DNA from: an uncultured Candidatus Saccharibacteria bacterium
GTDB taxonomy: Bacteria > Patescibacteriota > UBA1384 > JAMDBS01 > DAOVQR01
Direction of reading: 5' to 3'
Assembly: GCA_964481135.1 (NCBI GenBank)
Contig: CAYZSW010000001.1
Span: 7,963-71,962, forward strand
Length of the DNA: 64,000 bases
Positions 517 through 51,251 of the stretch are shown here, in pieces. The translations under genes were made by a program, and so were the position numbers. The notes beneath the pieces are model-generated. The model was given only the letters and a program-made list of their open reading frames with translations, did not search any database and was not told where the DNA came from. Numbering within the stretch: the stretch's first letter is position 1; each line of letters begins with the position of its first letter.

Positions 517-1533
517 TTATTTTTCCTGTCCTTCCCAAACTTTGGTTTTCTTGGTTTTATCTTTCAAATAATAAGCTGTTTGTTCTGGACTAACTACATT
601 AATAACATTGCCTGAACCCATTTCATAACCACCATAACCTGTAACTCTAGGGGCAATTTCAATATGCCAATGGTAATAATCTGAATTAGTAATAGTATTT
701 GGCGTAGTATGAAAAAAGAAATTTACAGGTGGATCATTTAAAGTTGAATCTAGCTTACCAAAAACATCTATTAGGCATTCTGAAAGACTCAGATATAAAC
801 TTTTAGTTTCATTTTCAAATTTTGAAGCATGGTTTTTTGGCAATATCCAGATCTCAAAAGGAAAACGGGCCGCATAAAATGTAAAAGCAATAAAATTTGA
901 ATTTTCAAAAATAATTCTTTTTTTAAATTTTTGTTCATGTTTAATGAGATCGCAAAAAGCACAACTTCCATTGTGTTCAAAATATTTCTCCGTATGGTGA
1001 ACTTCTTTTGAAATTAAATTGGGAATTATATTTGAGGCAAAAATTTGAGCATGTGGATGCTCAATAGATGCACCTGCCGCCTGATTGTGATTGTAAATTG
1101 GCATTGTATATGCAACATTACAATTTTCATCAAAATATTTATATCTAGCACTAAATGTAAGTAAAAGCTCATACCAGATTTGTCTAGTAAATTTTGGCAT
1201 ATCTATATCGTGATCTTTTATAACAACTACATCATGACCACCCGTAGAAGGACGAGCTCTATAAAAATCATTCTCGACTTTATAAGACCTAATAATATCT
1301 TTTGCCGCAACTTCAATAAATGCTGGGTATTTATTTTCAATAACCCAAATATTTTTTGTATCGAATCGCTTGATTCTTCTTTTGTATTCACTTTTATCAA
1401 TACAGAATGGGCAAGTGCCTTTGTTTTGAGTTTTAATAGTATCTGAAGTAATAAAATCGCTTGGTCGCTTCGCGCGCTCTGGAGCAATAACCACCCAATC
1501 ACCAGTTATTATATTTTGTCTTAGTTCAGGCAC
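517..1533 (-). CDS. galT: galactose-1-phosphate uridylyltransferase family protein (GalT-like, HIT superfamily)
   Basis: ORF 517..1617 has CPFC zinc-ligand and HPHAQIF (HxHxQ) active-site motifs in two half-domains. The likely true start is GTG at ~1533, preceded by GGAGG, giving MPELRQNIITGDWVV and an N-terminus length like E. coli GalT. The upstream extension only translates a repeat. Confidence 0.7.
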   Translation of the reverse strand: MPELRQNIITGDWVVIAPERAKRPSDFITSDTIKTQNKGTCPFCIDKSEYKRRIKRFDTKNIWVIENKYPAFIEVAAKDIIRSYKVENDFYRARPSTGGHDVVVIKDHDIDMPKFTRQIWYELLLTFSARYKYFDENCNVAYTMPIYNHNQAAGASIEHPHAQIFASNIIPNLISKEVHHTEKYFEHNGSCAFCDLIKHEQKFKKRIIFENSNFIAFTFYAARFPFEIWILPKNHASKFENETKSLYLSLSECLIDVFGKLDSTLNDPPVNFFFHTTPNTITNSDYYHWHIEIAPRVTGYGGYEMGSGNVINVVSPEQTAYYLKDKTKKTKVWEGQEK

Positions 1534-1544
1534 AATTTCCTCCA

Positions 1545-1654
1545 AAATTTCGAATTTCGAATATCGAAGTTCGAAACAATTTTCAAAAATTAAATAATTT
1601 ATTATTTGACCATTCAAATTTGTTTCGGTTTTCGGATTTCGTTTTTTCGAATTT
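1545..1654. repeat. two RPE-like repeat units between galT and ruvC
   Basis: 1545-1580 is a degenerate TTTCGAA heptamer array. 1611-1654 CATTCAAATTTGTTTCGGTTTTCGGATTTCG is ~29/31 identical to 2150-2180 inside ruvC. Confidence 0.7.
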
Positions 1655-2369
1655 AATACTTATTTGTTTGTAAGTGGGTAAGGCCTATAGCTATAGCATC
1701 TGTCGTATCGTCTTGTTTGGAAAAATGTCCGCACGGTAAATGAAACTTGACCATTTTTTGAATTTGATCTTTTGTCGCTTTACCATATCCTACCACTGCC
1801 TGTTTTACTTGTAAAGGAGTATATTCTGATACTCCTAATTTATGATTTTTTGCACAAACAATAATTACTCCACGAGCTTGTGAAACATTCATGGCAGTTT
1901 TCTGATTTTTAAACCAAAAAAGAGACTCTATTGCAAGTTCTGTAGGTTTATACTTTTTAATTAAATATTCAACTGCTTTATAAATTTCTGTTAATCTGTC
2001 TGGCAAATTTTTTCTTTTTTCTGTTTCAATTAAACCACAATCTCTTAGTTCAATCTCAAAATTCGAGTCTCGATATTCAAAACAATAATCTAAATCCAAA
2101 TTTTTTAATTTTTTAAACTGTTTTTTGTTTTTGTCATTATAATTTTGAACATTCGAATTTGTTTCGTGCTTCGGATTTCGCCCCTCGACCGACTCGGGAC
2201 GATCTGAACCTGTTGAAGATCGGGCTTTAGATTTTACTGGCTTTACAAGGATTGCCCAACCGCATCTTCCATAACCCGGATCTATTGCAAGAATGCGTTG
2301 AAGAGATGTTGAGCTATTCACCTTATTCGCTCGTTGAAGTTGTTGAAATTGTTTTTTTGTAATTTTCAT
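1653..2369 (-). CDS. ruvC: crossover junction endodeoxyribonuclease RuvC with a ~55-aa lineage-specific in-frame insertion
   Basis: N-terminal ILAIDPGYGRCGWAI and C-terminal DDTTDAIAIGLTH match RuvC. At 238 aa it is longer than the ~170-aa norm; the extra segment lies between the second beta-strand and the LPDRL helix. Confidence 0.7.
   Translation of the reverse strand: MKITKKQFQQLQRANKVNSSTSLQRILAIDPGYGRCGWAILVKPVKSKARSSTGSDRPESVEGRNPKHETNSNVQNYNDKNKKQFKKLKNLDLDYCFEYRDSNFEIELRDCGLIETEKRKNLPDRLTEIYKAVEYLIKKYKPTELAIESLFWFKNQKTAMNVSQARGVIIVCAKNHKLGVSEYTPLQVKQAVVGYGKATKDQIQKMVKFHLPCGHFSKQDDTTDAIAIGLTHLQTNKY
2150..2230. repeat. RPE-like repeat copy embedded in frame in ruvC, plus an adjacent GC-rich segment
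   Basis: CATTCGAATTTGTTTCGTGCTTCGGATTTCG followed by CCCCTCGACCGACTCGGGACGATCTGAACC, which encodes part of the RuvC extra segment. Confidence 0.7.
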
Positions 2370-12046: not shown

Positions 12047-12577
12047 TTACTTTTTAATTTGAAAACTAAACATTGTAAGTGAAATTCCAAATATTAAAGC
12101 ATAAACGCCAATCACCCAAACAATAAATTCTAAACTAATAATTGGGAAAAATAAAATTGTTATACCAACAATTAAAGATATCGCTCCGACAGTACTTAAA
12201 AGCCATTTGCCGATAACCTCTCCTTTTGTGGAAAAACCAACTATTAATTCCATAATTCCTGCAATAACTGCCCATATTGCAACAAAATAAATTAGTGTTA
12301 ATACTGTAATAGCTGGCCAAACAAAAATTAATACTCCAATTATAATCCCTAAAATACCATTTAATAAGTAAATCCACCACTTTTCATGATGATCCTTTGC
12401 TGAAAAAGATCCGATGATCATAATGATACCACTTAAAGAAGCATAGATTGCAAACAATACTACAATTGTTTTAATAGTAAGTCCTGTCCAAAAAAGTGCT
12501 ATTAATCCAAATAAAATCGCTAAAATTCCCCTAAATAAAATTACTCCAGAATACTTTGACAAATAATTTTTATTCAT
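12047..12577 (-). CDS. DUF308/HdeD-like membrane protein
   Basis: 176 aa, six short TM helices with the repeated small-residue pattern typical of the HdeD family. Confidence 0.5.
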   Translation of the reverse strand: MNKNYLSKYSGVILFRGILAILFGLIALFWTGLTIKTIVVLFAIYASLSGIIMIIGSFSAKDHHEKWWIYLLNGILGIIIGVLIFVWPAITVLTLIYFVAIWAVIAGIMELIVGFSTKGEVIGKWLLSTVGAISLIVGITILFFPIISLEFIVWVIGVYALIFGISLTMFSFQIKK

Positions 12578-12631: not shown

Positions 12632-12660
12632 TTGACCAAAAAAAATATATCTGTTATAAT
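12632..12660 (+). promoter_or_regulatory. sigma70-type promoter (TTGACC, 17 bp, TATAAT) upstream of tRNA-Lys
   Basis: Hexamers and spacing read directly; ~55 nt upstream of the tRNA. Confidence 0.5.
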
Positions 12661-12715
12661 CATTTTTGACCTCATCAAATTGTAAAAAGAAAATTATTAA
12701 TCATGCACTCAGGAA

Positions 12716-15995: not shown

Positions 15996-16142
15996 AATAA
16001 TGATTAATACCTAATATTATCTGTTTTATTATAGCACTACTCTGTATTTTTCCAAACTTTTAATGAACTTCCCTGTGGCTTAAAGACCACAGGGTTTTCC
16101 CCGGCCTCGCTCCGCGAAGCGGGGCGGGCTGGCGAAGGGTGA

Positions 16143-16206
16143 TAAACTACCTCACGGCAAGCTTCGCGGAATTCATCCACTTGTCCGCCTTGAGCAAATT
16201 AAATTT
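16143..16206 (+). promoter_or_regulatory. conserved upstream element, copy 2 (ATAAACTACCTCACGGCAAGCTTCGCGGAATTCATCCACTTGTCCGCCTTGAGCAAATTAAATTT)
   Basis: Matches the dnaK-upstream element. Followed ~20 bp later by TTTACA, 17 bp, ATAATA, and then the 16295 start. Confidence 0.4.
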
Positions 16207-20049: not shown

Positions 20050-21819
20050 TTAATATTTCAATAACTTAATAAAAACATCGGAAGGAATATCTACTTTCCC
20101 GAGCTTTTTCATTTTCTGCTTACCTTTTGCCTGTTTTTCCCAAAGCTTTCTTTTACGAGTAATATCCCCACCATAAAGATGACCAGTAACATCTTTTTTC
20201 ATAGCAGAAATATCTTCTCTGGCTAAAATTTTTCCTCCAACTGCTGCTTGGACTGTTATCTGAAACATTTGTTTTGGAATTAAATCTTTTAATCTTTTAG
20301 TGATTTCATGTGCTTTTGAATTTAATTCTAATCTATGTACTATTTGAGAAAGAACATCGATTTTTTCACCAGCAATTAGAATATCCATTTTTACTAGGTC
20401 TTCGTAGCGATAGTCTATGAGCTCATAATTCATTGAGGCATATCCACTAGAAATACTTTTGAGTTTATCATAAAAATTAATAATTATTGATGCAAGCGGA
20501 GCCTCGTATTTCAAAATTACTCTATCTGAAATATATTCTGTAGAAATATATTTTGCACGCGATTTTTGGGCTAAATCCATTACAGACCCAATAAATTGCC
20601 CAGGACAAACTATTTCAAGCGCGACCCATGGTTCTTTATAACTCAATTTCCCATCTAAATTTTGAACTATATAATCAACTTGTGGGGTAGTCACAATTAA
20701 ATCTAAATCATATTCTCTTTCTAAACGCTCCTTCACTATCTCCATATGAAGTAAACCCAAAAAACCACATTTAAATCCAAAACCAAACGCTCTAGAGCTT
20801 TCTGGCTCAAAAGATAGGGAAGAATCATTTAATTTTAATTTATTTAATGCTTCGCGAAGCTTATTAATATTTCCTTCCTGAGAATAAAGACTCGCAAAAA
20901 TCATTGGTCTAATTTTTTTATAACCTGGCAGGGGAGAGAGTCCGATTTGATTTTTCAAATCGTTAATTTTCGAATTTCGAATTTCGAATTTCGAATTATC
21001 TACAGTAAGAGTATCTCCAACTTGACACAAAGAAATATTTTTTAATCCTGTCACAACATATCCAATATCCCCTACTTCTAGTTTTTCTTTTTTAGTATAA
21101 TTTGGAGAAAAAATACCAACGTCTAACGCATCGTCTTCGGCGCGGGTTTGCATGAGGCTAATCTTATCTCCAGAATAAATCTGACCATCAACAACTCGAA
21201 TATATGCTATTACCCCCCTATATGAATCATAAACTGAATCAAAAATTAAAGCTCTTGTTGGACTTAAATCTCCTTTTGGAGGCTTAACTCTTTTAATTAC
21301 CGCTTCCAAAATTTGCTCTACACCTTCTCCTGTCTTTGCTGATGTATATAAAATTTGAGATCTGTCAATTTTTAGTAATTCGACAATTTCACTGACAACT
21401 TTTTCTTTGTCTGCCGCCGGAAGATCAATTTTATTTATTACTGGAATAATATCTAAATTTTGTTTTTGAGCATAATAAAGATTTGCAAGAGTTTGTGCTT
21501 GAATTCCTTGGGTTGCATCAATTAACAATATTGCGCCTTCTACAGCAGCAAGAGATCGAGAAACTTCATACGAAAAATCTACATGGCCGGGAGTATCAAT
21601 TAAATTTAACTGGTAGTTATTAAAATTAATTGTAACAGGTTGTAATTTGATTGTTATCCCTCGCTCTCTCTCAAGATCCATTTTATCTAAATACTGTTCT
21701 CGCATATTTCTATCTTCTACTGTTTTTGTAATTTCTAAAAAACGATCAGCGAGCGTTGATTTGCCGTGATCTACATGAGCAATAATGCAAAAATTGCGAA
21801 TATTTTCTTTTGTTACCAT
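20050..21819 (-). CDS. lepA: elongation factor 4 (LepA)
   Basis: IIAHVDHGKSTL G1 motif, DTPGH, NKID, and a LepA-specific C-terminal domain. The likely start is MVTKENIRNF, the second Met of the ORF. A 15-aa extra segment NSKFEIRNSKINDLK is encoded by a 7-nt tandem repeat. Confidence 0.9.
   Translation of the reverse strand: MVTKENIRNFCIIAHVDHGKSTLADRFLEITKTVEDRNMREQYLDKMDLERERGITIKLQPVTINFNNYQLNLIDTPGHVDFSYEVSRSLAAVEGAILLIDATQGIQAQTLANLYYAQKQNLDIIPVINKIDLPAADKEKVVSEIVELLKIDRSQILYTSAKTGEGVEQILEAVIKRVKPPKGDLSPTRALIFDSVYDSYRGVIAYIRVVDGQIYSGDKISLMQTRAEDDALDVGIFSPNYTKKEKLEVGDIGYVVTGLKNISLCQVGDTLTVDNSKFEIRNSKINDLKNQIGLSPLPGYKKIRPMIFASLYSQEGNINKLREALNKLKLNDSSLSFEPESSRAFGFGFKCGFLGLLHMEIVKERLEREYDLDLIVTTPQVDYIVQNLDGKLSYKEPWVALEIVCPGQFIGSVMDLAQKSRAKYISTEYISDRVILKYEAPLASIIINFYDKLKSISSGYASMNYELIDYRYEDLVKMDILIAGEKIDVLSQIVHRLELNSKAHEITKRLKDLIPKQMFQITVQAAVGGKILAREDISAMKKDVTGHLYGGDITRKRKLWEKQAKGKQKMKKLGKVDIPSDVFIKLLKY
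20968..20995. repeat. 4x tandem heptanucleotide repeat (TTTCGAA) in frame inside lepA
   Basis: TTTCGAATTTCGAATTTCGAATTTCGAA read directly. The same heptamer is repeated at 1545-1580. Confidence 0.85.
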
Positions 21820-21914
21820 ATTTGTTCCTATTTTATGTGATTTTAACACAAATAATAAATCATTTCCAGGTTGAAAGCTTAAAAAGATAATCGATTTAAG
21901 CTATAATATAATAA

Positions 21915-49326: not shown

Positions 49327-51251
49327 TATGGTGAATAATTCACCGACACATCGTAAACAACCGGTGTTTTGCTATTCTCAAGTGTTGTTAAATATATTTT
49401 ATATTTTATATATCTTCCTAAAGAATGTGAAAGAGGAATTGCTTCTCCATCTGGATTGGTAAATCGCGTTGCTTCTGTTCCGTCTGGTCCTACAAAATTC
49501 CATGTTGCATTATCAGTATTAGTAGCAATTTGGAATTCTACATTTGTTACTCCGGGATCGATCAATTCTGTCCAAAAAATCCGATTAAATGAAACTTCAT
49601 CACCTGCATCAAAAGTACTTGATATATATTGCCCAGACGGAAAGTAACCAGTTTCTGCGATAGCTGAAAGTCGAAACATTGTATCTTGATTATTAAATAC
49701 ATTCCAATTTGTACCGGCATTATTGCTTTCTGTATATCTTGCATCTAAACCCAGATAATTAATATCATTGTCTGGGCTTCGGTCTAAATTTTCTGCGTGT
49801 TCTATGTGATATGATCGATTATGTGCAGTTCCAGGTGATTTTAGATAAAATCTATATTGCCTTCCTTCTATAAAAGCAATTTTTGGGTCAAGTGAAATTT
49901 CATGTAGTTGATAATCCATAGTAATATCTGTTCTTGTAACAAAAATTTCGTTAAATAAAATAGTATTGGTTGTCATATCTTCAATAACTAAATATAAATC
50001 ATCTTGAGGCTGAGCACCAACACTTTTTTTAACATAAATTGCCATTCTATTAAAAAACTCTGTACCCTCTTTGTAAGTAAAAATTTCTCCTTTATAAAAA
50101 TTTCCGTAAACATCTTTGTCTCGTGCTTCATGATATGGATTTCCTTCGGCTTCTGGGTTGCTATCAGTAAATAATAAAATATAAACAGGCGTATTATTAA
50201 CATCTGACCAGTTTGCGCCACCATTACTAGTCCAGCGGATCATAAGATTTAAATCATCTGCACTAGTTAAAGGCACAACCAAGTTTAAAGGATTTAAAGT
50301 TCTAAATATAATTGATCTTCCGGCATTTATTTGACCTGAATTATGCTCTATTACTAGGTGATAAATATTACCAGCTGTAATAGAAACATTTTCATTTAAA
50401 TTAAGTTCATGCCAGCCAGTGTTATTAGTTTGAAAATCTTTATAACCCTCATTATTACCTCCCAACCAATTACCACTTGGACTACCGTTATTATCTGATT
50501 GCAGTCCATATCTATATGTAGGAGTTTGATTTTGATGAGTAGAAGAAATGTAAATTCTAAGCGCTCTTACCTCTTTTGTATTTTGAGCAGTAAAACGAAA
50601 AGAAACTTTTTTACTTGAATTATCTAATGCATCTGTTTGGCTAGTACCAAAAACAGAGAATCTGTTACCAACTTGCTTGCCTTCACCTTGTCCATAAGCA
50701 AGCTTAATTTCACCACCTTGATCGTTTGTAACTTCTGTATCATTTACAGTCCCATCTATAAAATCATTATAAGTTGTTTCAATCCAATTAGCATTGTTTT
50801 GATAACGAGTCAGATATATTTCCTTAGATATAGATAAATTACGGGGTTTTTGCCAAGAAACAGAAATAATAAATTTTTTTGTCGATGGGTCCTCAATTCC
50901 ACTTTCTGATATTTCTCCGCTAACCGCATTACGGTAAACTGATTCGATAGAGATGCTTCTAGTAAAATTATCATCGATATTTTCTACACCATCTGCTAAA
51001 TTCCACACTCCGTTATTATTTATAATACGAGCGGGATATGTATGATAAACTAAGTCATTCCACGACCGCTCGTGTATTGAATAAAGAGCATTAACTGCTT
51101 CTTGAACATATTCTTCTGCTTGAGTTTGTTTTAATGAATTAAACTGAGCTTGTGAAATATCTACAAAAAGACCAATAACTGAACTAATTATTACACTAGC
51201 AATAGCAGTAGCAATAATAAGCTCAATTAGAATTTGACCTTTATTTGACAC
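49326..51251 (-). CDS. large (~640 aa) pilin-like protein, candidate tip or PilY1/PilV-like adhesin subunit
   Basis: The ORF-track N-terminal extension translates a CA-rich leader. A GTG ~51251 gives MSNKG / QILIELIIATAIASVII, a classic short prepilin leader, followed by 600 aa of beta-rich sequence. Confidence 0.5.
   Translation of the reverse strand: MSNKGQILIELIIATAIASVIISSVIGLFVDISQAQFNSLKQTQAEEYVQEAVNALYSIHERSWNDLVYHTYPARIINNNGVWNLADGVENIDDNFTRSISIESVYRNAVSGEISESGIEDPSTKKFIISVSWQKPRNLSISKEIYLTRYQNNANWIETTYNDFIDGTVNDTEVTNDQGGEIKLAYGQGEGKQVGNRFSVFGTSQTDALDNSSKKVSFRFTAQNTKEVRALRIYISSTHQNQTPTYRYGLQSDNNGSPSGNWLGGNNEGYKDFQTNNTGWHELNLNENVSITAGNIYHLVIEHNSGQINAGRSIIFRTLNPLNLVVPLTSADDLNLMIRWTSNGGANWSDVNNTPVYILLFTDSNPEAEGNPYHEARDKDVYGNFYKGEIFTYKEGTEFFNRMAIYVKKSVGAQPQDDLYLVIEDMTTNTILFNEIFVTRTDITMDYQLHEISLDPKIAFIEGRQYRFYLKSPGTAHNRSYHIEHAENLDRSPDNDINYLGLDARYTESNNAGTNWNVFNNQDTMFRLSAIAETGYFPSGQYISSTFDAGDEVSFNRIFWTELIDPGVTNVEFQIATNTDNATWNFVGPDGTEATRFTNPDGEAIPLSHSLGRYIKYKIYLTTLENSKTPVVYDVSVNYSP

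What the first reader, a model, noticed from the sequence alone, without database searches (positions are those of the whole stretch)
20960..21000. Heptanucleotide (TTTCGAA)x4 tandem repeat in frame inside lepA
The array encodes NSKFEIRNSKI within a 15-aa insertion relative to E. coli LepA (between GDTLT and LPG(Y/F)KK). A 7-nt unit means gain or loss of one or two units by slipped-strand mispairing would frameshift this translation factor; only multiples of three preserve the frame. A degenerate version of the same heptamer array sits upstream of galT (1545-1580). The heptamer may be a mobile microsatellite, and lepA a contingency-type locus.
Basis: seen in the sequence. Interest (0 to 1): 0.55.

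Follow-up and report, generated by a model that had tools for sequence, protein, structure and literature searches.

The report
In-frame heptamer microsatellite in lepA linker
A perfect four-copy 7-base tandem repeat sits in frame in a floppy linker of the translation factor LepA of a candidate-phyla-radiation bacterium; it is an ordinary bacterial heptamer microsatellite tolerated at a permissive spot, stable between close strains, slowly rewritten between lineages, with no sign of being an on/off switch.

Summary
Window 20968-20997 is a perfect (TTTCGAA)x4.3 array, the only perfect tandem repeat of period 4-12 with at least 3.5 copies in the 64 kb. It lies in frame in lepA (minus strand), inside a 15-aa insertion between domains II and III that AlphaFold2 models as disordered coil.

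The same linker carries heptamer arrays in other Patescibacteria LepA genes, with different units:
- AATYCGA in a 74% relative.
- AAAATCG in a 62% relative.
- ATTTCCG and ATTGCCG in a second clade, apparently in the opposite orientation.
- Decayed remnants in sister lineages.

Three strains at 94-98% nucleotide identity carry an identical array. Two lineages at 89% protein identity differ by one base in every unit. That is a microsatellite with slow concerted turnover, always found in frame.

One relative has nine period-7 arrays in 17 kb, two of them in frame in oxidoreductase genes. Arrays of this unit family occur across many phyla without conserved flanks, and a composition-matched control heptamer is equally common in viral contigs.

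Verdict: a heptanucleotide simple-sequence repeat, a known and over-represented bacterial class, fixed in a permissive linker. The contingency-locus reading is not supported but could not be tested on reads. The "mobile microsatellite" reading is not supported. Interest is modest.

The parts
20968..20997 (-). Perfect heptanucleotide array. It reads (TTTCGAA)x4.3 on the + strand and (AATTCGA)x4 + AA on the sense (minus) strand, and encodes NSKFEIRNSK. There are no stop codons in any of the six frames.
   Evidence: frame and consequences of unit changes
20953..20997 (-). The 45-nt (15-aa, NSKFEIRNSKINDLK) insertion relative to T. thermophilus EF4, between the last strand of domain II and domain III. 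It is predicted to be disordered.
   Evidence: HMMER alignment. Loop lengths are 24-25 residues in most homologs against 40 here. In the AF2 model, residues 278-291 have pLDDT<50 and 274-306 are coil. Pfam D2 ends at residue 282 and EFG_III starts at 315 in 599-aa numbering.
20943..20962 (.). 8-bp-stem inverted repeat CGATTTGA-tttt-TCAAATCG next to the array, partly inside the insertion. It is probably incidental.
   Evidence: predicted fold. The 3' arm is disrupted in the 74% relative without a compensating change.
20050..21849 (-). lepA (EF4) ORF of 599 aa from GTG. The database protein P0001 starts at the ATG at 21819 and is 589 aa.
1546..1575 (-). Degenerate array of the same unit (AATTTCG x4.3, 86%), immediately 5' of the GGAGGA Shine-Dalgarno and GTG of galT. 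It lies in the likely 5' UTR, in the same orientation as the lepA array.
1623..1652 (-). Second degenerate heptad array. It reads TTTCGGT TTTCGGA TTTCGTT TTTTCGAATTT on the + strand and lies just 3' of the ruvC stop codon.
2152..2187 (-). Decayed heptads inside the roughly 58-aa RuvC insertion. The sense strand reads CGAAATC CGAAGCA CGAAACA..TTCGAAT, peptide GRNPKHETNSN. Four CG dinucleotides sit at 7-nt spacing.

Best explanation
The array is a heptanucleotide simple-sequence repeat, produced and kept homogeneous by replication slippage or intra-array conversion. It sits in a structurally permissive, disordered linker between domains II and III of LepA.

It is tolerated for three reasons. The unit has no stop codon in any frame. 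The total length is a multiple of three (30 nt, 10 aa). The linker accepts almost any sequence.

It behaves as a fixed in-frame insertion on the strain timescale. It turns over on the timescale of about 10% protein divergence, through unit replacement, decay and loss. Selection removes out-of-frame lengths.

Shown: the anatomy; positional homology across lineages; different units per lineage; stability among close strains; genome-wide excess of period 7 in a relative; predicted disorder of the loop.

Inferred: slippage or conversion as the homogenising mechanism, and the absence of any regulatory role.
For: (1) The array is perfect and unique in the window.

(2) The same linker carries arrays in relatives, starting at the same codons:
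- L001 (74% aa identity): AATTCGA AATCCGA AATCCGA AATTCGA. The same T>C change appears in two adjacent units.
- L003 (62%): AAATTCG + (AAAATCG)x4.
- L002 (57%): (ATTTCCG)x4.3.
- L206: (CGATTGC)x4.7.

(3) P0082 and P0107 are 89% identical, yet their units differ by one base in all copies. That is concerted evolution.

(4) L002, L210 and L211 come from three samples at 94-98% nt identity and have identical arrays.

(5) Sister lineages at 66-83% identity have decayed remnants that have lost the CG (L005, L208, L209), or short loops with no insert. This is a microsatellite birth-death pattern.

(6) Ten of 120 LepA relatives have loop peptides that fit a near-perfect heptamer array, with at least six different units.

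(7) The linker is hypervariable in length, 23-57 residues between anchors, and is modelled as disordered with pLDDT 43.

(8) Period 7 dominates tandem repeats in these genomes. L206 has 9 arrays against 0 for periods 4-9, including in-frame arrays of 36 and 33 nt in TPP-enzyme and PFOR genes. In the window, CG triples at 7-nt spacing number 9, against 0-2 for other spacings.

(9) Literature: heptanucleotide repeats are the most abundant long SSR class in most bacterial genomes, and polymerase slippage has been proposed as the cause. This is Mrazek et al. 2007 as summarised in PMC4679880 and PMC4692102.
Against: - No reads or population data were available for this genome, so present-day length variation is untested.
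- Between the window and its 74% relative, the loop is unusually conserved at synonymous sites: 16 of 17 identical-aa codons are identical against 10.5 expected, P about 0.0014, including the rare codons TCG and CGA. Pure neutral turnover does not predict this. It could mean nucleotide-level constraint or a more recent shared origin of this segment.
- Homogenisation of a 4-unit array without passing through frameshifted intermediates needs conversion or +/-3-unit steps. No 7.3-unit intermediate was seen.
- The second clade appears to carry the array in the opposite orientation. That needs either an independent origin or an in-place inversion.
Confidence: 0.7

Rival explanations
1. Contingency locus. 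Slipped-strand mispairing in the array switches lepA on and off at high frequency. This would give phenotypic heterogeneity in a factor that is dispensable under good conditions.
For: A 7-nt unit inside an ORF means that +/-1 or 2 units truncate LepA at aa 290-302, right after domain II. Arrays evidently undergo turnover over evolutionary time. From established knowledge, E. coli lepA is non-essential, so null alleles could be tolerated.
Against: - There are only 4.3 units.
- The unit number and frame are the same in a 74% relative.
- The sister array is identical in three strains that differ by up to 5.7% in nucleotides.
- Every array-bearing homolog retrieved is in frame, though the retrieval was biased towards intact proteins.
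- In the relative L206, equivalent in-frame heptamer arrays occur in core metabolic enzymes. That points to a genome-wide mutational process rather than a gene-specific switch.
Confidence: 0.07
2. Mobile short element, meaning a 'mobile microsatellite' or a Rickettsia-palindromic-element-like insert. A roughly 45-nt unit (array plus hairpin) would be inserted in frame into permissive loops and intergenic sites, independently in different lineages.
For: - Related heptads occur at four places in the window, two of them inside insertions in conserved proteins, LepA and RuvC.
- The array appears at the same linker in two clades in apparently opposite orientation.
- The high nucleotide conservation of the insert between the window and L001 is compatible with acquisition after their split.
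- CGAAAWY arrays are found in many phyla and in viral contigs.
Against: - No conserved flanking sequence, terminal repeats or target duplications are seen among 135 arrays.
- The hairpin is not part of the other copies.
- The control heptamer GCAAAWY is equally frequent in viral contigs, 80 against 82, so the unit is not special.
- Arrays in window, L001 and L003 start at the same codons, with a shared first unit AAT TCG AAA. That indicates common descent rather than repeated insertion.
- The unit differs wholesale between 89%-identical proteins. Slippage or conversion explains this. Re-insertion does not.
Confidence: 0.1
3. Nucleotide-level functional element. The array, whether DNA with four TTCGAA palindromes in 30 bp or mRNA, would be bound by a protein or would form a structure that affects lepA expression. 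It would be conserved for that reason.
For: - There is excess synonymous conservation in the loop, P about 0.0014.
- The loop windows tie with the most conserved protein motif for nucleotide identity, 0.89.
- The window's array folds on itself at -9.6 kcal/mol against -1.3 for shuffles.
- A like-oriented array sits just 5' of the galT Shine-Dalgarno. This recalls the TAACTGA repeats found upstream of start codons (PMC4679880).
Against: - Units differ between lineages (CGAAATT, CGAAATC, CGAAAAT, CGGAAAT-rc, CGGCAAT-rc), and most are not palindromic or self-folding.
- Orientation differs between clades.
- The adjacent hairpin is broken without compensation in L001.
- Many close relatives lack the array.
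- There is no Rfam match.
- TTCGAA is not over- or under-represented in the window overall, 19 sites against 21.5 expected.
Confidence: 0.08
4. Selected peptide linker. The inserted residues lengthen the linker between domains II and III for a lineage-specific function of LepA, and the DNA repeat is only how the peptide arose.
For: The insertion length is conserved between the window and L001, 40 residues between anchors. Many Patescibacteria LepA proteins have extended linkers of varied sequence.
Against: The sequence and length of the linker are extremely variable, and close relatives at about 70% identity have none. The segment is predicted to be disordered. A selected peptide does not explain perfect DNA repeats or synonymous conservation.
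Confidence: 0.05

Closest known systems
Bacterial heptanucleotide long simple-sequence repeats. Examples: LSSRs of Mrazek, Guo and Shah 2007; cyanobacterial STRR heptamers; Xanthomonas GGGAATC and Nostoc GGGGAYT repeats (PMC4692102); TAACTGA repeats of Beggiatoaceae and cyanobacteria (PMC4679880).
   Same: Head-to-tail 7-nt units in a few copies (typically 2-6). Period 7 is over-represented relative to other periods. Several unit families coexist per genome. Length and sequence vary between related species. Some copies lie directly upstream of start codons, as the galT copy does here. Inverted pairs occur in some genomes.
   Different: The described families are overwhelmingly intergenic. Units whose length is not a multiple of three are noted as disfavoured in coding regions (PMC4679880). 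Here the array is in frame inside a universal translation GTPase. It is positionally retained across lineages down to about 57-62% protein identity, and each lineage has its own homogenised unit.
Contingency (phase-variable) loci of Haemophilus, Neisseria and Helicobacter. An example with 7-nt units is the repeat tract controlling H. influenzae hmw1A/hmw2A (PMC8262952).
   Same: A non-triplet SSR whose unit gain or loss would change expression, here by frameshift.
   Different: Those tracts are long and polymorphic between and within strains, and they sit in surface or restriction-modification genes (established knowledge). This tract has 4.3 units in a housekeeping gene. The homologous tract is invariant among three close strains.
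Rickettsia palindromic elements (RPEs), inserted in frame in conserved proteins (Ogata et al. 2000; recalled from memory, not checked in the paper library).
   Same: Repetitive DNA that survives inside conserved genes only where it adds a tolerated, surface-exposed peptide. Copies are found both in genes and between genes.
   Different: RPEs are about 100-150-bp palindromic elements with a conserved consensus. Here there is no conserved element beyond a 7-nt unit, no shared flanks, and the unit changes between lineages.
Low-complexity insertions in proteins of AT-rich genomes, generated by slippage (for example Plasmodium and endosymbionts; established knowledge).
   Same: An N/K/S/I-rich, disordered insertion in a surface loop of a conserved protein in a 30% GC genome.
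   Different: Those usually derive from triplet or homopolymer-codon expansion. This one derives from a 7-nt unit, so the peptide has a 7-residue period and the DNA contains rare CG codons (TCG, CGA).

Membership tests
Heptanucleotide simple-sequence repeat (bacterial LSSR / STRR-like) | Head-to-tail tandem copies of a 7-nt unit, longer than chance expectation | tested here: met
   TRF reports period 7, 4.3 copies, 100% matches. It is the only perfect array of at least 3.5 copies for periods 4-12 in 64 kb.
Heptanucleotide simple-sequence repeat (bacterial LSSR / STRR-like) | Period 7 over-represented relative to neighbouring periods in the genome | tested here: inconclusive
   In the window, 3 arrays of period 7 against 0-2 for other periods, and CG triples at 7-nt spacing number 9 against 0-2. 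The excess is strong in the relative L206, 9 against 0. The whole source genome was not available.
Heptanucleotide simple-sequence repeat (bacterial LSSR / STRR-like) | Length and sequence turnover between related lineages (slippage dynamics) | tested here: met
   Different homogenised units at the homologous site. Decayed remnants in sister lineages.
Heptanucleotide simple-sequence repeat (bacterial LSSR / STRR-like) | Predominantly intergenic location | tested here: not met
   This copy, and the RuvC copy, are inside ORFs. Two other window copies are intergenic. Location is a tendency of the class, not a definition.
Contingency / phase-variable locus | SSR placed so that unit gain or loss switches expression | tested here: met
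   +/-1 or 2 units give a stop at aa 290-302.
Contingency / phase-variable locus | Repeat-number polymorphism among close strains or within a population | tested here: not met
   The homologous array is identical in three strains from three samples at 94-98% nt identity. The unit count is the same in the 74% relative. This array's own reads and strains were not available.
Contingency / phase-variable locus | Long tract giving high slippage rate, and a gene class under fluctuating selection (surface or R-M) | tested here: not met
   There are 4.3 units. The gene is EF4/LepA.
In-frame mobile palindromic element (RPE/MITE-like) | Conserved element consensus with shared ends in many dispersed copies | tested here: not met
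   No conserved flanks among 135 arrays from 120 loci. The window copies share only the heptad. The control heptamer is equally frequent.
In-frame mobile palindromic element (RPE/MITE-like) | Insertion in frame in surface loops of conserved proteins | tested here: met
   LepA linker, RuvC hairpin, and the TPP-enzyme and PFOR genes in L206.
LepA / elongation factor 4 | GTP_EFTU + domain II + EFG_C + LepA_C architecture and full-length similarity to solved EF4 | tested here: met

The most novel reading that the evidence does not exclude
In Patescibacteria, the linker between LepA domains II and III would be a maintained 'living' heptamer microsatellite rather than a passive one. One version is that nucleotide-level selection keeps the tract perfect, which would explain the synonymous conservation and the recurrence with different units and orientation. 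The other version is that the tract gives low-frequency reversible frameshift inactivation of the dispensable factor EF4. In-frame heptamer tracts in other core enzymes of these reduced genomes would then act in the same way.
Probability: 0.08. Interest if true: 0.65.

Novelty: new variant of a known kind. Interest (0 to 1): 0.35.

Why it matters
Heptamer repeats are the commonest long microsatellites in bacteria, yet they remain unexplained and have been described almost only between genes. This case shows one persisting in frame at the same spot of a universal translation factor across diverged candidate-phyla-radiation lineages. Each lineage has its own homogenised unit.

That gives a natural, datable series for measuring heptamer turnover:
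- Stable at up to about 6% nucleotide divergence.
- Replaced wholesale by about 11% protein divergence.
- Decayed at about 20-35% protein divergence.

It also documents one route by which the lineage-specific insertions typical of these bacteria's conserved proteins arise. It does not change what is known about LepA, and it gives no evidence of a new regulatory mechanism.

Tried and rejected
- The search for related loci with LepA on metagenome contigs returned mostly relatives at about 50% identity and no near-identical strain. The only array among them was the already known ACD58 contig. It served only as a negative control.
- Exact look-ups of the window's LepA, both 589 and 599 aa, found no contig on record. 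The cluster has one member and no name. So neither the source organism nor a second assembly could be examined.
- L003 and L004, two accessions carrying P0015, turned out identical in DNA over 3.3 kb. They are not independent evidence of stability.
- A literal-sequence literature search found only unrelated primer hits.
- Rfam at gathering thresholds matches only one tRNA in the window.
- GC3-periodicity and open-frame tests, meant to classify the 135 arrays from other phyla as coding or intergenic, were inconclusive in high-GC genomes.
- I considered the adjacent 8-bp hairpin as part of a mobile unit or a terminator. It is not followed by a T-run on the sense strand, and it is not conserved by compensatory change in L001.
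- I considered restriction-site clustering, since TTCGAA is a palindrome. The site is at expected frequency in the window.
- I considered the resemblance of TTTCGAA to the Spo0A box TGNCGAA (from memory). I dismissed it as coincidence because the units differ between lineages.
Full report
**Observation**

Window 20968-20997 is a perfect tandem array with period 7, 4.3 copies, 100% matches and unit TTTCGAA. It is the only perfect tandem repeat of at least 3.5 copies for any period from 4 to 12 in the 64-kb window. Two-unit matches are far above shuffle expectation: 17 against 2.2, with 0 of 100 shuffles reaching 17.

The window has 29.9% GC, with CG under-represented at 0.78 of expectation. The palindrome TTCGAA is at expected overall frequency, 19 sites against 21.5, but it clusters at 1549-1646 and 20969-20990.

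**The gene**

The array lies in the minus-strand ORF 20050-21849. This ORF is LepA/EF4. It matches T. thermophilus, Aquifex and E. coli EF4 structures at E = 1e-173 to 1e-180. Pfam finds GTP_EFTU, D2, EFG_C and LepA_C.

The sense strand reads GAT AAT TCG AAA TTC GAA ATT CGA AAT TCG AAA ATT, which encodes D-NSKFEIRNSKI. The alignment to T. thermophilus EF4 opens a 15-residue gap exactly here. Most homologs have 24-25 residues between the GDT and PGY anchors, where this protein has 40.

Pfam domain II ends at GDTLTV and domain III begins about 30 residues later. An AlphaFold2 model built on 56 homologs has mean pLDDT 82. It gives pLDDT below 50 for residues 278-291 (FEIRNSKINDLKNQ) and coil from 274 to 306. 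The insertion is therefore a disordered inter-domain linker.

A change of +/-1 or +/-2 units creates a stop at aa 290-302. A change of +/-3 units keeps the frame. The unit has no stop codon in any of the six frames, which can be read directly from the sequence.

**Other copies in the window**

- A degenerate array (AATTTCG x4.3, 86% matches) lies at 1546-1575. It sits directly 5' of GGAGGAAATTGTG, the likely true start of galT. Pfam GalT homology starts at residue 24 of the longer TTG-started ORF.
- A second degenerate array lies at 1623-1652, just after the ruvC stop.
- A decayed one lies at 2152-2187, inside a roughly 58-aa insertion in RuvC relative to E. coli RuvC.
- All four copies have the same orientation relative to their genes.
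- CG dinucleotides repeated three times at 7-nt spacing occur 9 times in the window, against 0-2 for spacings 4-12. Seven of the nine are in these four places. The sites at 50918 and 57115 are chance.

**Relatives**

The closest database proteins are Patescibacteria LepA. The linker is hypervariable, at 23-57 residues. I fetched DNA for eleven relatives.

| Locus | Protein | Identity to window LepA | Linker DNA |
|---|---|---|---|
| L001 | P0002 | 74% | AATTCGA AATCCGA AATCCGA AATTCGA, same length and frame as the window |
| L003 | P0015 | 62% | AAATTCG followed by (AAAATCG)x4 |
| L002 | P0107 | 57% | (ATTTCCG)x4.3 |
| L206 | P0082 | 58% | (CGATTGC)x4.7 |
| L005, L208, L209 | P0003, P0014, P0033 | 63-70% | Decayed remnants that have lost the CG |
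| L207 | P0040 | 59% | A different CGGAT/ATCCG-rich insert |

- In L001, the same T>C change appears in two adjacent units.
- The L206 array was predicted from its peptide IADCRLPIAD before the DNA was read.
- In window, L001 and L003 the array starts at the same codons with the same first unit, AAT TCG AAA. These arrays are positionally homologous.
- The second-clade units (L002, L206) are closest to the first-clade units as reverse complements. CGGAAAT differs from CGAAAAT by one base, whereas the direct comparison gives three or more mismatches. This suggests opposite orientation, though I cannot prove it.
- Ten of the 120 best LepA hits have loop peptides that fit a perfect or one-mismatch heptamer array, with at least six different units. 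Two more have such peptides in another variable loop near residue 65.
- Nearest-neighbour comparison shows array-bearing, remnant-bearing and insert-free proteins interleaved at 70-85% identity.

**Rate of change**

P0107, P0083 and P0108 come from three different samples. They are 94-98% identical in nucleotides and 87-97% identical at third positions. All three carry exactly the same (ATTTCCG)x4.3 array.

P0082 and P0107 are 89% identical in protein. Their units differ by one base in every copy, and the flank differs by a 4-aa indel.

The array is therefore stable at strain level and is rewritten in concert at roughly 10% protein divergence. This is microsatellite behaviour, not hypermutable switching.

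**Genome-wide process**

The 17-kb locus L206 has nine period-7 arrays and none of periods 4-9. They include in-frame arrays of 36 nt in a TPP-enzyme gene (KIRHPKSDIRNPK) and 33 nt in a PFOR gene, plus many intergenic (GAATTAA)n arrays.

In 0.6 Mb of unrelated LepA loci, period 7 is mildly the commonest: 6 arrays, against 3 each for periods 6 and 9.

These came from nearly every bacterial phylum, including genomes of 60-70% GC. Lengths were mostly 22-35 nt and none lay in lepA.

These arrays share no flanking sequence and show no orientation bias toward downstream genes, 14 against 19. About a tenth have an inverted heptamer array beside them.

In viral contigs the same pattern gives 82 stretches and the composition-matched control (GCAAAWY)x3 gives 80. 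The unit is therefore not special. The wide distribution reflects heptamer SSRs in general, not a mobile family.

**Literature**

Heptanucleotide repeats were reported as the most abundant long SSR class in most bacterial genomes. Their abundance was tentatively attributed to the length of DNA held by the polymerase. Non-triplet units were noted as disfavoured in coding regions. This is Mrazek et al. 2007 as summarised in PMC4679880 and PMC4692102.

Described families are almost entirely intergenic and of unknown function. They include cyanobacterial STRR, Xanthomonas GGGAATC, Nostoc GGGGAYT and Beggiatoaceae TAACTGA. Some lie just upstream of start codons, as the galT copy does.

I found no paper containing these unit sequences. 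A keyword search combining candidate-phyla-radiation and repeat terms listed none on heptamer repeats in these bacteria among its 12 top-ranked hits.

**One loose end**

Between the window and L001, the loop is more conserved at synonymous sites than the rest of the gene. Sixteen of 17 identical-aa codons are identical, against 10.5 expected from residue-specific backgrounds (P about 0.0014). This includes the rare codons TCG (twice) and CGA.

Loop windows tie with the most conserved protein motif for nucleotide identity, 0.89. The adjacent 8-bp hairpin is not kept by compensatory change. Only the window's own unit is self-complementary enough to fold.

This is a single comparison. It may reflect conversion-driven homogenisation, nucleotide-level constraint, or a more recent shared origin of the segment. 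I leave it unexplained.

**Verdict**

The best explanation (about 0.7) is a heptanucleotide SSR fixed in frame in a permissive, disordered linker of LepA. Slippage or conversion keeps it homogeneous, and selection keeps the length in frame.

The contingency-locus reading is not supported by comparative data (about 0.07), but it could not be tested on reads of this organism. The mobile-element reading (about 0.1) fails the tests for shared ends and for unit specificity.

The new element is the persistence and concerted evolution of a non-triplet microsatellite at one site of a universal translation factor across Patescibacteria. This is a new variant of a known kind, of modest interest.

Noticed in passing
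window 1653-2369 (minus), insertion about 2060-2245: RuvC carries a roughly 58-aa insertion between the equivalents of E. coli RuvC residues 19 and 30. Part of it (2152-2187, GRNPKHETNSN) is a decayed CGAAAYC heptad array. The upstream part is unusually GC-rich for this genome and contains short inverted repeats.
   Followed up: partly
window 1533-1617: The galT ORF as listed starts at a TTG at 1617. However, a GGAGGA Shine-Dalgarno followed by GTG lies just downstream of the heptad array, and Pfam homology starts at residue 24. The array is therefore probably in the 5' UTR, immediately upstream of the ribosome-binding site.
   Followed up: partly
relatives P0003, P0005, P0021, P0024, P0028, P0040 (loci L005 2124-4328 and L207 1838-4159): Several Patescibacteria LepA proteins (734-773 aa) have a PF13366 PDDEXK_3 nuclease-like domain nested inside the GTP_EFTU domain. 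This is a roughly 150-aa domain insertion in a translation GTPase.
   Followed up: no
L206 (GCA_028711415.1 contig JAQTSG010000015.1) 4057-17004: This locus has a very high density of heptamer arrays, nine in 17 kb. They include (GAATTAA)n arrays in several intergenic regions, sometimes as inverted pairs (12636-12665 and 12672-12706), and in-frame arrays in a TPP-enzyme gene (12300-12335) and a PFOR gene (16111-16143).
   Followed up: partly
LepA relatives P0114, P0118, P0068 (proteins only): The linker peptides ..PPFKKGARGI.. and ..RTGQCPV.. look like translations of short GC-rich palindromic elements. This suggests that other kinds of small repeats also lodge in this linker. It was not checked at DNA level.
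   Followed up: no
L207 about 2640-2760 (LepA linker of P0040): This linker is packed with CGGAT/ATCCG pentamers in both orientations (GCGGATTTAATATCCGT...ATCCGCGTAAAAATCCGC...). P0021 and P0028 share the peptide motif G[YF]NI..PRKNP. It is a different, palindromic type of insert at the same site.
   Followed up: no
L055 879-908, L057 8790-8819, L042 513-543: Other heptamer arrays of about 30 nt, (CTGACCA)x4.3 and (AGGGGCA)x4.3, lie in flanks of unrelated LepA loci. They resemble the cyanobacterial STRR units as recalled from memory.
   Followed up: no
window 20050-21849 (LepA residues about 398-402): This LepA lacks about 16 residues that T. thermophilus EF4 has between VQNLDGK and LSYKEPW. 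It also lacks 5 residues near residue 76. It carries lineage-specific deletions as well as the insertion.
   Followed up: no
LepA relatives P0022 (residue 67) and P0079 (residue 65): Peptides compatible with heptamer arrays (ITNNKSQITN and YQLQTTNYKL) occur in a second variable loop of the G domain. The linker between domains II and III may not be the only array-accepting site in LepA.
   Followed up: no
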